Assembly: GCA_030264375.1 (NCBI GenBank) | Contig: JASCQW010000128.1 | Coordinates: forward strand, 20,492,961-20,556,960 | Source of the DNA: Carcharhinus longimanus | Lineage: Eukaryota | Direction of reading: 5' to 3' | DNA: 64,000 nucleotides | Part shown: positions 36,001-39,000 of the stretch, piece by piece | Numbering within the stretch: the first letter of the stretch is position 1 | How the letters are laid out: each line of letters opens with the position of its first letter | Position numbers: made by a program

Positions 36001-39000
36001 TCACGAATAATCTGTTCATTATCAAGATACATCAATACACCTGAAGAATTATAACCAGCTTATAATCAGCCTTGTAGATTCTGGCGAGGTGAAATAAGAC
36101 TTGGGCCAGGATTCTCTGGCCTCCCGTCAGTGGGCTTCTCGGCAGCGGGAGGCAGCACGCCATTCGCTAGCGACGGGATCAAGGAATCCGCCATGAGCGA
36201 ACAGCCGGAGAATTCCGGCCTAGGTAAAGATTTACCTACAAGGTTAGGCCATTCGCGTTGAATCAGACTCCAAATATATTTCACTCCAGATGAATTTCAA
36301 TTTCCTTACATTCTCTCTTCTGTGTACTCACGTCAATTACATCAGAGAGGTCATGGATGTAATACTTGAAAACAGAATTATTGCTCGCTTCCAGTGTCAG
36401 CAGATATTCGTTTCGTGCCTTGATGGATTTCAGCTTATTTTCCGAGTACTTGGCTTGTCGCTATCCCACATAAAATGAAAAAGAAGAATGGGTTAACGGA
36501 TGGGCTTAAAATGAAGGTGCAGTTCATCCATCAAAGACACACACACAGACACAAAAAACAGGACACAGAAAACCTTTAAGAGATTCCAATCAGTCGCTAT
36601 GGCAACTGGATACCGCAGGGCCTAATTTTTTAGAGAAAAAGCCAGGCCTGGCAGCCAAACCTACAGGAGTCTATAACTGCCTAAAATGCCACACCCAAGA
36701 ACCAAGATTTGGAGTTGTACAGAATGTTGATTAGGCCACAGTTGGAGTACTGTGTGCAGTTTTGGTCACCTCACTATGGGAAGAATGTGTTAGAACTAGA
36801 GTGGGTACAAGAGTGGATTTACCAGGATGTTGCCCAGGATGGGGCATTTGAGCTTTAAGGAGAGACTGGATGGGGCTTGGATTGGTTGTTGGGGGGGAGA
36901 TATGATTGAGCTGTGTAAGTTTATGAGGGGTACAGACAGGATAAATAGGAAACAGCTGTTTCCCTTGGTTGAGGGGTCAATCACAAGGGGCAGAAGATTC
37001 AGAGGGGATTTGGGGTAAAAAAAATCACTCAGAGGGTAATGGGAATCTGGAATGCACTGCCTGGGAAGGTAGTGGAGGCCGGAAACCTTACAACCTTTAC
37101 AAAATATCTGGATGAAACATCATAACATTCAAGAATATGGGACAAGTGCAGGAAAATGGGATTAGTACGACTTCAGTGGTAGTTATTGTTAGTATGGATT
37201 CGATGGGCCGAAGGGTCTACAGAGAAGGGAGAGGGAGTTGAAGAGATGGACAGGTTTAGGGGTGGGGAATTGCAGAGTTTGGAGCCTCAGAGGATAGTGA
37301 ATCCGTAGAATTCTTTCCCGCAGAGGGCTGTAAAGGCTGGATCGTTAAGTAAGTTCAAGGCTGAGATAGAGAGATTTTTATTCATTAAGGGAATCGAGGG
37401 TCATGGGGAGAAGTTATCGGGAAAGCGGAGTTGAGGATTATCACATCAGATCGGTCATAATCTCATTGAATGGCAGAAAGTACTCGATGGGCCAAATGGC
37501 CTACTTGTGCTCCTATGTCTTCTGGTTGTTGACACAGGAGCCGATGAGTGCCTTGCAATCAGTGTTGGAGATAAGTGTGGAAGGAGACAGGGAGAAGGGT
37601 TTAAGAAGAGAATAATGTTGAAGAAATACACTGGATTGATTGGCCGTGCTAAATTGCCCCTCAGTGTCAGGGGGAATCATATAGTGCAGAAAGAGGCCAT
37701 TCGGCCCATCGAGTCTGCACTGACCACAATCCCACCCAGGCCCTCCCCCCATATCCCTATACATTTACCCATTAATCCTTCTAACCCACACATCTCAGGA
37801 CACTAAGGGGCAATTTTAGCATGGCCTATCAACCTAACCCGCACATTTTTGAAGTAGTTGAGGCTACCTCATTGAATGTTTTTAAGGTAAGGATAGTTAA
37901 ATTTTTGAACACAAAAGGAATTAAGGGTAATGGTGAGCAGGTGGGTAAGTGGATCTGAGTCCACAAAATGATCAGCCATGATCTTATTGAATGGCAGAGC
38001 AGGCTCGAGGAGCCAGATGATCTACTCCGGTTCCTAGTTCTTATGTTCTTATTGCAGTGTTAATGTAAGCCTTATTTGTGACATAAATCAACTTTACATT
38101 GCCATGTTCTCCTTAATCAATACTGCCACTCATCCCCATTTCCTTCCTTTCCTATTTTCCTGAACACCTTGTATCCAGGAATATTTTATAGCCAATCTGC
38201 TCTTCTTTCAGTCAGGTTTCTCTTATTTCCACAATGTCATATTTATGTGCCCACCTATGTCTGCAAATCTTTTTTCACCACACTCAGAACATGAACTCTA
38301 ATTTAGACTTTATCCCACCTAATAATGTACTATTTCCCATTCTAGTGCTAATGATTCCCCCAGTAATATCTCCTTGCTAGTATTACCTTCTAGTTCCGAT
38401 CTAGTTGCCAAGTTAATTTAAATACTCCCCAATAGCACTTGAGAACATATCCACAAGGAATTTGGGTGCTGTTTAGATTCAACCTTTCTGACCTGTACAG
38501 TCGCCCCAGAGTTGGTCCCAGTGTCTCAGGAATTTAAAGCTTCCTCGCTTTTGCTATTATTCAGCCACACATTCACTTAAGGGGGCATGGGAGATTGAGG
38601 GAGCATGGCATAGCAGGGAGCTTTGGAGCCCATGAAGGAGCATGGGGAGCTGGGTAGAGGTGGCAAGGGATGGGGTTTAAGGATGTGGGCTTAACTAGAG
38701 CACAGTGACAGAGTGGCTAGCACTGCTGTTCCACAGCACAGGGACCCGGGTTCAACTCCAACCTTGCATGATTATGTGGAGTTTGCACTTTCTCCCTGAG
38801 TCTGCATGGGCTTCCTCCAGGTACTCCAGTTTTCTCCCATAGTCCAAAGATGTGCAGATTAGGGCGATTGGCCATGCTGAATTTCCTCTTAATGTTCCAA
38901 GATGTGTAGACTTGGTGGATTAGCCTAGTGCAAAGTTGATGGGCTGAATGGCCTTTTTCTGCATTATTGGGTTTCTATGATCTAATATTCCATTTTTGCA

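What the first reader, a model, noticed from the sequence alone, without database searches (positions are those of the whole stretch)
36332..36460. Orphan, intact SRGAP1 F-BAR exon sitting in-frame inside a HELZ-like intron
Seen: a 129-nt stop-free exon with a pyrimidine-rich AG acceptor and a consensus GTGAGT donor, phase 0-0, on the same strand as the HELZ-like gene. It lies in the intron 32697-43046, which is also phase 0 (...DIE | VELQ...), so inclusion would add 43 aa without a frameshift just upstream of the helicase core. Knowledge: the peptide is almost identical to a vertebrate SRGAP1 F-BAR exon. I found no other SRGAP exon in the window. No N gap separates it from HELZ-like exons 43047-47160 (nearest gaps 34525-34624 and 47584-47682). 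Inference: exon capture by retrotransposon transduction or segmental duplication (the 34850-36700 flank is partly non-repetitive and bracketed by CR1 pieces), interleaved genes, or a local misassembly.
Basis: partly seen in the sequence, partly recalled or inferred. Interest (0 to 1): 0.85.

Follow-up and report, generated by a model that had tools for sequence, protein, structure and literature searches.

The report
Stray SRGAP1 exon, probably misassembled
A perfect copy of one SRGAP1 exon does sit inside an intron of a shark HELZ gene, but it lies in a 6-kb block that looks more like an assembly error than a captured exon.

Summary
Window 36332-36460 (minus strand) is a stop-free 129-nt exon with an AG acceptor and a GTGAGT donor. 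Its 43 residues are identical to SRGAP1 residues 223-265 of six sharks and rays. It lies in the phase-0 HELZ intron 32697-43046, and no other SRGAP1 exon is in the window.

New here: the exon sits in a 6.08-kb block (34625-~40702) that interrupts one old LINE copy. The left part of that LINE (33214-34524) runs into the N gap 34525-34624. Its right part resumes at ~40703, with only about 37 residues of LINE missing. The block is therefore extra DNA. It is also the end segment of a contig, it abuts a gap, and it joins the HELZ sequence inside a multi-copy repeat.

That is the anatomy of a chimeric contig in a fragmented draft (10 N runs in 64 kb). A genuine SRGAP1 exon would also explain the zero amino-acid changes and the undecayed CpGs. 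A real, recent duplicative insertion is not excluded. LINE transduction, a retrocopy and interleaved genes have little or no support. None of six cartilaginous-fish HELZ proteins carries the 43 residues. No eukaryotic DNA or reads were available, so the verdict is probabilistic.

The parts
36332..36460 (-). SRGAP1 exon, 129 nt, phase 0-0, encoding residues 223-265 of shark SRGAP1 (F-BAR domain)
   Evidence: sequence, translation; PDB SRGAP2 residues 235-277, E 2.7e-19; exact string in 12 of 120 listed hits, all elasmobranch SRGAP1; tblastn E 1.6e-20; CpG obs/exp 0.93 against 0.25 for the window
36326..36331 (-). Donor site GTGAGT of the exon
   Evidence: read directly
36461..36495 (-). Acceptor AG with an upstream pyrimidine-rich stretch
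   Evidence: read directly
34625..40702 (.). 6.08-kb 'extra' block that carries the exon. It interrupts LINE-X, is the end segment of contig 34625-47583, and is a mosaic of repeat pieces and sequence with no in-window copy.
   Evidence: self-BLAST; ORFs; LINE-X pieces on both sides
34525..34624 (.). N run of 100 that hides the left junction of the block
33214..34524 (+). LINE-X, left part (end of the endonuclease domain to the N-terminal part of the reverse transcriptase); it runs into the gap
   Evidence: Exo_endo_phos_2, E 0.007; P0136 residues 1-72 map to 34241-34512; P0134 residues 14-52 map to 34384-34500
40703..41750 (+). LINE-X, right part (reverse transcriptase from about reference residue 114 to the end of ORF2). 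The right end is approximate.
   Evidence: RVT_1, E 9.5e-10, profile positions 106-177; P0136 residues 114-240 map to 40703-41086; successive decayed ORFs up to ~41750-41850
34625..34803 (+). 3' end of a different, CR1-type LINE: the last 28 codons of ORF2, a stop, and a tail with a 19-nt direct repeat
   Evidence: (D4); (weak likeness to other ORF2 C-termini in the window: 36% and 25% identity to two of them, 7% to the third, over 28 residues)
35315..35571 (+). Interspersed repeat with 2.8 copies of a 52-nt unit; related copies at 37674-37858, 38840-38943, 28752-28889, 31993-32072 and 60056-60126
36727..37530 (+). 5'-truncated, frameshifted LINE fragment (LINE-B: C-terminal ORF2 region plus 3' tail), antisense to the exon
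   Evidence: three overlapping frames; matches to 54840-54937, 16766-16899, 26493-26740, 2460-2696
43047..43386 (-). HELZ exon upstream of the host intron; its donor is GC (43046-43045)
   Evidence: 96% identity to Chiloscyllium and Scyliorhinus HELZ; orthologue junction
32569..32696 (-). HELZ exon downstream of the host intron

Best explanation
The 129-nt exon is the genuine SRGAP1 exon for residues 223-265. It appears inside HELZ because a piece of the SRGAP1 locus at least 6 kb long (34625-~40702) was joined to HELZ intron sequence during assembly. The join lies inside a multi-copy LINE. In the true HELZ intron, LINE-X would run on uninterrupted from ~34524 to ~40703. The contig on the left stops inside LINE-X. 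The contig on the right starts with the foreign piece and crosses into LINE-X at ~40703. On this reading nothing is captured, nothing is spliced into HELZ, and HELZ reads ...DIE|VELQ... as in other cartilaginous fishes. Shown: the identity of the exon, the split LINE, the position of the block at a contig end, and the absence of the insert from orthologous proteins. Inferred: that the join is an artefact.
For: (1) One LINE is split. The reference RT fragment P0136 maps residues 1-72 to 34241-34512 (+) and residues 114-240 to 40703-41086 (+). P0134 and P0132 behave the same way. These are the only two pieces of this family in the window; the other two P0136 rows are 30% and 36% identical. About 37 residues of LINE are missing, and the left piece ends at the N run.
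(2) The block is the end segment of contig 34625-47583 and abuts the gap. A chimeric contig must look like this; for a real insertion it would be a coincidence.
(3) The flanks of this gap are discordant: LINE-X reverse transcriptase on the left, the 3' end of another LINE type on the right. Three other N runs (4811, 12211, 53968) have collinear pieces of one LINE on both flanks (my reading of the frames).
(4) The exon has 0 of 43 residue changes against SRGAP1 of six elasmobranch species. Both splice sites are intact. CpG obs/exp is 0.93 against 0.25 for the window. This is expected for the functional exon and needs recency or selection for a copy.
(5) The draft is fragmented, with 10 N runs in 64 kb. 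The VGP preprint (10.1101/2020.05.22.110833, passage seen) counts ~5,000-8,000 mis-joins in short-read assemblies of one bird genome.
(6) All 6 cartilaginous-fish HELZ representatives read ...R[DE]IEVELQ... without the insert. No protein with helicase domains is among the 120 listed hits to the exon.
Against: No N run lies between the exon and the HELZ exons at 43047-47160, so the primary assembler found a path across ~40703. LINE-X looks old, with stops and frameshifts. That makes a long exact overlap with another copy less likely, though not impossible. The left contig stops about 111 nt short of the point where LINE-X resumes, which neither reading predicts. I had no reads, no other copy of this genome and no related shark DNA. 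That this is a short-read assembly is inferred from gap density only. My odds rest on anatomy and base rates, not on a direct test.
Confidence: 0.58

Rival explanations
1. Real, recent DNA-level duplicative insertion. A piece of the SRGAP1 locus at least 6 kb long (exon plus flanking intron with its resident repeats) was copied into LINE-X in the HELZ intron and sits there as a passenger, too young to have decayed.
For: Contig continuity from the exon to HELZ exons, with no N in 34625-47583. The split of LINE-X is also what a true insertion would produce. The block is a typical intronic mosaic. Genomic origin is certain, because both splice sites are kept.
Against: It needs a rare event, plus recency: 0 of 43 residue changes and CpG obs/exp 0.93, while the flanking LINE pieces are frameshifted. 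The left junction happens to be hidden in a gap. A strong constitutive exon placed in sense inside a conserved gene should be selected against (inference). Whether the source locus still has the block could not be tested.
Confidence: 0.27
2. Real insertion that is also spliced. The exon is included, at least sometimes, between HELZ ...DIE and VELQ..., adding 43 residues of F-BAR helix just upstream of the helicase core.
For: Same strand, phase 0-0 exon in a phase-0 intron. The exon has a GTGAGT donor, whereas the host intron has a weaker GC donor. No stop would be introduced.
Against: All 6 cartilaginous-fish HELZ representatives lack the insert. No helicase-bearing protein is among the 120 listed hits to the exon. 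No RNA data were available. It also requires the DNA to be real first.
Confidence: 0.05
3. Capture by LINE read-through (3' transduction). The CR1-type element whose 3' end is at 34625-34803 was transcribed past its end, carried about 5.9 kb of SRGAP1 intron with the exon (antisense), and retrotransposed into LINE-X.
For: A LINE 3' end lies directly upstream of the block on the + strand, and the exon is antisense to it. The whole unit lies inside another LINE.
Against: The far end of the block (40660-40702) shows no poly(A) or microsatellite tail; a gag-like ORF runs almost to the junction. CR1-type enzymes are thought to need their own 3' end (recalled, not tested). 5.9 kb would be a very long transduction. 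Target-site duplications cannot be checked, because the left junction is in the gap.
Confidence: 0.04
4. Interleaved genes: SRGAP1 and HELZ really overlap on the same strand in this species.
For: Only the single exon on the HELZ strand.
Against: There are 0 further SRGAP1 exons in 64 kb, while 13 collinear HELZ segments fill it. In human the two genes are on different chromosomes (recalled). The block is an interruption of a LINE, not native intron.
Confidence: 0.02

Closest known systems
Repeat-induced chimeric contigs and mis-joins in draft vertebrate assemblies
   Same: A foreign segment at the end of a contig; the join inside a multi-copy LINE; the neighbouring contig ends in the complementary part of the same LINE copy; the foreign exon is flawless because it is the real one. 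The VGP preprint reports ~5,000-8,000 mis-joins in short-read assemblies against 20 to ~700 in long-read ones (passage seen).
   Different: Not verified with reads here. LINE-X looks old, so a long exact overlap with another copy is not a given.
Exon-bearing segmental duplication, such as the human SRGAP2B/C partial duplications of the F-BAR region
   Same: A DNA-level copy of part of an srGAP F-BAR region, with intact splice sites (SRGAP2C papers: listing and abstracts; passages of PMC5435084).
   Different: Those duplicates carry a promoter and the first nine exons, and they make a protein. Here a single internal exon lies in another gene's intron, and its existence as a second copy is unproven.
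L1 3' transduction and exon shuffling
   Same: A LINE 3' end lies directly upstream of non-LINE DNA that holds an exon (L1 transduction: abstract of PMC4862182 seen in the listing; the exon-shuffling experiments are recalled).
   Different: No tail at the distal end; CR1-type rather than L1; target-site duplications not visible; the length of about 5.9 kb would be unusual.
Processed retrocopy or pseudogene fragment
   Same: A lone piece of a gene away from its locus.
   Different: A retrocopy has fused exons and no splice sites. Here the match stops exactly at an AG and a GT.

Membership tests
SRGAP1 exon (srGAP F-BAR) | Sequence identity to SRGAP1 rather than to another srGAP paralogue | tested here: met
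   43 of 43 residues identical to SRGAP1 of Rhincodon, Carcharodon, Cetorhinus, Heptranchias, Narcine and Hemitrygon; 37 of 43 to human SRGAP2
SRGAP1 exon (srGAP F-BAR) | The match ends exactly at splice sites (a genomic exon, not a retrocopy) | tested here: met
   The alignment covers residues 1-43 end to end. AG and GTGAGT flank it. The residues that follow in shark SRGAP1 are not encoded after the donor.
SRGAP1 exon (srGAP F-BAR) | Neighbouring SRGAP1 exons in the same locus | tested here: not met
   tblastn of three shark SRGAP1 proteins: one significant hit each; all other rows E >= 1.6
Chimeric contig (assembly artefact) | The foreign segment reaches a contig end | tested here: met
   The block starts at 34625, directly after the N run 34525-34624
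Chimeric contig (assembly artefact) | The join lies in a multi-copy repeat, and the true neighbour contig ends in the same repeat copy | tested here: met
   LINE-X residues 1-72 at 34241-34512 and residues 114-240 at 40703-41086, same strand, collinear
Chimeric contig (assembly artefact) | No read or read-pair support across the join | not testable with these tools
   No reads and no eukaryotic DNA collection were on hand
Segmental (duplicative) insertion | A second, near-identical copy at the source locus | not testable with these tools
Segmental (duplicative) insertion | Both junctions with the target are visible | tested here: inconclusive
   The right junction is at ~40700; the left junction is hidden in the N run
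LINE 3' transduction | A LINE 3' end directly upstream of the carried DNA, in the same orientation | tested here: met
   End of ORF2 plus tail at 34625-34803 on the + strand
LINE 3' transduction | A poly(A) or microsatellite tail at the distal end, and target-site duplications | tested here: not met
   No tail at 40660-40702. Target-site duplications cannot be tested because the left junction is in the gap.
Alternative exon of HELZ | Present in HELZ proteins or transcripts of related species | tested here: not met
   0 of 6 cartilaginous-fish HELZ representatives hold it. RNA data were not available.

The most novel reading that the evidence does not exclude
The block is real. A very recent duplicative insertion of at least 6 kb dropped a constitutive, symmetric SRGAP1 F-BAR exon, in sense, into a phase-0 GC-AG intron of HELZ. 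The exon, with its stronger donor, is then spliced into some HELZ transcripts and adds 43 residues of coiled-coil helix just before the helicase core. That would be a natural exon-shuffling event caught before either loss or fixation.
Probability: 0.05. Interest if true: 0.55.

Novelty: not a real feature. Interest (0 to 1): 0.15.

Why it matters
If it is an artefact, the value is practical. The SRGAP1 model of this assembly may lack residues 223-265, a gene predictor could produce a false HELZ isoform with a 43-residue insert, and 'no N between them' is shown to be a poor guarantee of contiguity in a repeat-rich draft. A LINE copy split between a contig end and a point 6 kb inside the next contig is a cheap, sequence-only flag for such joins. 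If the block is real, it would be an ordinary exon-bearing duplication. It would be interesting only if the exon is spliced into HELZ.

Tried and rejected
Retrocopy: rejected, because the match stops at intact splice sites.

Transposon capture with terminal inverted repeats or flanking direct repeats: the repeat finder on 34625-38100 gave only repeat-family pairs and nothing that brackets the exon.

Structured RNA or SINE families: Rfam found 0 matches at E <= 1 in 32000-44000.

One LINE running across the gap from 33214-34524 into 34625-34803: this was my first idea. I dropped it when the true continuation of that LINE turned up at 40703 and the right-of-gap piece proved to resemble a different LINE type (weak, 28 residues).

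Base composition of the block: GC 0.43 against 0.40 for the window, and CpG obs/exp 0.29 against 0.25. This is not informative.

Literature: 10 papers hold both 'SRGAP1' and 'HELZ'. By their titles and abstracts all are gene lists. One was opened (PMC10047989, passages) and said nothing about linkage of the two genes.

Pfam on the 43 residues alone: no family at E <= 1; the piece is too short for the F-BAR model.

Pfam on the gag-like ORF 40394-40681: no hit at E <= 0.1. 'Gag-like' is my recollection only.

Full report
WHAT IS THERE. On the minus strand, 36460->36332 is a 129-nt open frame. It is preceded by a pyrimidine-rich stretch and an AG, and followed by GTGAGT. It translates to 43 residues without a stop (P0001). 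The peptide aligns end to end with residues 235-277 of the solved human SRGAP2 F-BAR domain (5i6r, 5i6j; E 2.7e-19; 37 of 43 identical). According to the paper on those structures, that position lies within the F-BAR proper, residues 1-355 (PMC5435084, passages). Pfam finds nothing in the 43 residues alone.

A search of the large protein set for longer proteins gave 2827 hits with E <= 0.001 among 2828 candidates, of which 120 were listed. Of those 120, 12 hold the exact 43-residue string. All 12 are SRGAP1 or 'SRGAP1-like' proteins of Rhincodon, Carcharodon, Cetorhinus, Heptranchias, Narcine and Hemitrygon, and the string is always at residues 223-265. Skates and other rays are 98% identical; the chimaera and teleosts are 95%. 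The exon is therefore SRGAP1, and the window comes from an elasmobranch. I do not take it for human.

THE HOST GENE. I searched the models exon by exon and left out the step of joining exons into a spliced protein. The exon 43047-43385 finds 'probable helicase with zinc finger domain' (HELZ): Chiloscyllium and Scyliorhinus at 96%, Pristiophorus at 95%, Callorhinchus at 90%, sturgeon at 62% (8 hits with E <= 0.001 among 369 candidates; only proteins up to 2000 residues were searched). tblastn of two shark HELZ proteins maps residues ~58-784 collinearly on the minus strand, from 63694 down to 28057, in 13 segments. Nothing beyond residue 784 is found in 1-28056. Pfam gives weak supporting matches: zf-CCCH at E 0.004 and the Mov-10 helical domain at E 4.9e-06.

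The upstream exon ends ...GAC ATA GAG at 43047 and is followed by GCAAGT. The downstream exon starts GTG GAG at 32696 after CAG. All 6 cartilaginous-fish HELZ representatives read ...R[DE]IEVELQ... across this junction, and none holds the 43 residues. The 2 sturgeon proteins did not match my pattern, and I did not look at them further.

NO OTHER SRGAP1 EXON. Three shark SRGAP1 proteins (P0005, P0011, P0003) each hit the window once, at 36460-36329 or 36460-36320, with E about 1e-20. The remaining 2-3 rows per query have E >= 1.6.

THE SURROUNDINGS: THE NEW POINT. The window holds 10 N runs. The exon lies on the piece 34625-47583, 1.7 kb from its left end.

Self-BLAST finds interspersed repeats at 35315-35571, 36727-37113, 37286-37526, 37674-38052 and 38699-38921. 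It finds no in-window copy for 34625-35314 or for 35572-36726, the stretch that holds the exon.

Left of the gap, 33214-34524 is a LINE on the + strand, running from the end of the endonuclease domain into the reverse transcriptase (Exo_endo_phos_2, E 0.007; ORFs).

Right of the gap, 34625-34803 holds the last 28 codons of a LINE ORF2 plus a tail. I first thought one LINE ran across the gap. The search of protein representatives with the RT piece 40685-40954 gave fragments that span the critical region:
- P0136 maps residues 1-72 to 34241-34512 and residues 114-240 to 40703-41086.
- P0134 maps residues 14-52 to 34384-34500 and residues 52-130 to 40724-40960.
- P0132 maps residues 1-45 to 34343-34501 and residues 61-143 to 40703-40951.
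All of these are on the + strand. The other two P0136 rows (25882-26118 at 30%, 54007-54105 at 36%) belong to other LINE families.

So the window holds exactly two pieces of this family. They are collinear and on the same strand, and they abut in reference coordinates with about 37 residues (about 111 nt) missing. The first piece ends at the N run. By my estimate two unrelated fragments would do this in about 4% of cases (inference). I read them as one old copy, LINE-X, split by the 6.08 kb from 34625 to ~40702.

The right part of LINE-X continues through decayed ORFs to about 41750, so it has its own C-terminus. The piece at 34625-34803 resembles the ORF2 ends of another LINE type in the window (weak: 36% and 25% identity to two of the three compared, 7% to the third, over 28 residues). 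Calling these elements 'CR1-type' rests on recollection.

WHAT THE BLOCK IS MADE OF. In order, the block holds:
- the foreign LINE 3' end (34625-34803);
- sequence with no in-window copy (34804-35314);
- a repeat with a 52-nt tandem unit (35315-35571);
- 1.15 kb with no in-window copy, which holds the exon (35572-36726);
- a frameshifted, 5'-truncated LINE-B (36727-37530);
- more LINE tails (37674-38052);
- another repeat (38699-38921);
- 1.5 kb with nothing recognised;
- an ORF that looks gag-like to me but has no Pfam hit (40394-40681).
This is what an ordinary shark intron looks like.

READING IT. Two readings fit a block that interrupts a LINE.

(A) Chimeric contig. The true intron has LINE-X intact. 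The left contig stops inside it. The right contig crossed, inside LINE sequence, into a copy at the SRGAP1 locus, and so carries at least 6 kb of that locus at its end.

(B) A real duplicative insertion of at least 6 kb into LINE-X, with its left junction hidden in the gap.

Four things favour A.
- The foreign part reaches the contig end. A chimera must do this; for B it is a coincidence.
- The flanks of this gap are discordant, whereas three other N runs (4811, 12211, 53968) have collinear pieces of one LINE on both flanks (my reading of the frames; the remaining six runs were not classed).
- The exon has 0 of 43 residue changes against a sequence shared by sharks and rays, both splice sites are intact, and CpG obs/exp is 0.93 against 0.25 for the window. 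The LINE pieces beside it are frameshifted. Under B this needs a very recent event or selection.
- Mis-joins are frequent in fragmented drafts. The VGP preprint counts ~5,000-8,000 in short-read assemblies of one bird genome against 20 to ~700 in long-read ones (passage seen). That this window comes from such an assembly is my inference from 10 N runs in 64 kb.

Three things count against A. The primary assembler did find a path across ~40703 without leaving an N. LINE-X is old, which makes long exact overlaps with other copies less likely. The left contig stops about 111 nt short of the crossing point, which neither reading explains.

A further inference counts against an old real insertion: a strong constitutive, symmetric exon in sense inside a conserved gene would tend to be spliced in, and so to be selected against.

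I put A at about 0.58, B at about 0.27, B with splicing into HELZ at about 0.05, LINE read-through capture at about 0.04 and interleaved genes at about 0.02.

OTHER MECHANISMS.
- Retrocopy is excluded by the intact splice sites.
- LINE 3' transduction has one feature, a LINE 3' end directly upstream on the + strand. It lacks a tail at the distal end, and target-site duplications cannot be seen.
- No terminal inverted repeats or direct repeats bracket the exon.
- Rfam finds nothing in 32000-44000.

WHAT STAYED UNCHECKED.
The SRGAP1 locus of this genome, the orthologous HELZ intron of other sharks, and RNA evidence were therefore out of reach.
- The short unnamed hits were not inspected.
- One homologous-protein search was left unused, because no query of mine could settle A against B.
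- Literature: 10 papers hold both gene names, all as gene lists by title and abstract. I therefore found no report of an SRGAP1-HELZ link in that library.

VERDICT. The interpretation as exon capture is not supported over the more mundane one. The likeliest account is a mis-joined piece of the SRGAP1 locus, and the next likeliest is an ordinary, silent, recent duplication. Interest is low unless reads show that the block is real and RNA shows that the exon is included.

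Noticed in passing
window 43045-43046 (minus strand), intron 32697-43046: The HELZ intron that holds the block has a GC donor (GAG|GCAAGT), so it is a GC-AG intron. The junction ...DIE|VELQ... agrees with 6 of 6 cartilaginous-fish HELZ proteins.
   Followed up: partly
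window 36100-36230 and 35572-36331: A CpG-rich stretch lies 100-230 nt downstream of the exon in gene sense. CpG obs/exp is 0.57 for 35572-36331 against 0.25 for the window. It has no in-window copy. It may be a young repeat or a conserved intronic element.
   Followed up: no
P0003 (Rhincodon typus 'SRGAP1-like', 526 aa): This whale-shark model follows other shark SRGAP1 up to the end of this very exon (residue 265). It then has 33 unrelated residues and jumps to the RhoGAP domain. The region after this exon may be troublesome in another shark assembly or annotation too.
   Followed up: no
N runs 4811-4910, 12211-12310, 53968-53977: Both flanks of each run carry collinear, same-strand pieces of one LINE, so these gaps sit inside LINE copies. 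The runs of exactly 100 N are placeholders that hide several hundred to about 2000 nt.
   Followed up: partly
window 51620-52240: A tandem array of about 80-nt units lies on both sides of the N run 51946-52045, inside a HELZ intron.
   Followed up: no
window 1-28056: No HELZ exon beyond residue ~784 is found in the 28 kb downstream of the exon at 28057-28248. Either the next intron is very long or the scaffold leaves the gene there.
   Followed up: no
P0002 (Tetraodon nigroviridis, 913 aa): It scores 138 bits against the 43-residue exon, about twice any other hit. That suggests the exon occurs twice in that old gene model.
   Followed up: no
window 40394-40681 (+): A 95-residue ORF runs almost up to the point where LINE-X resumes. 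It looks gag-like to me (recollection) but has no Pfam match at E <= 0.1.
   Followed up: partly
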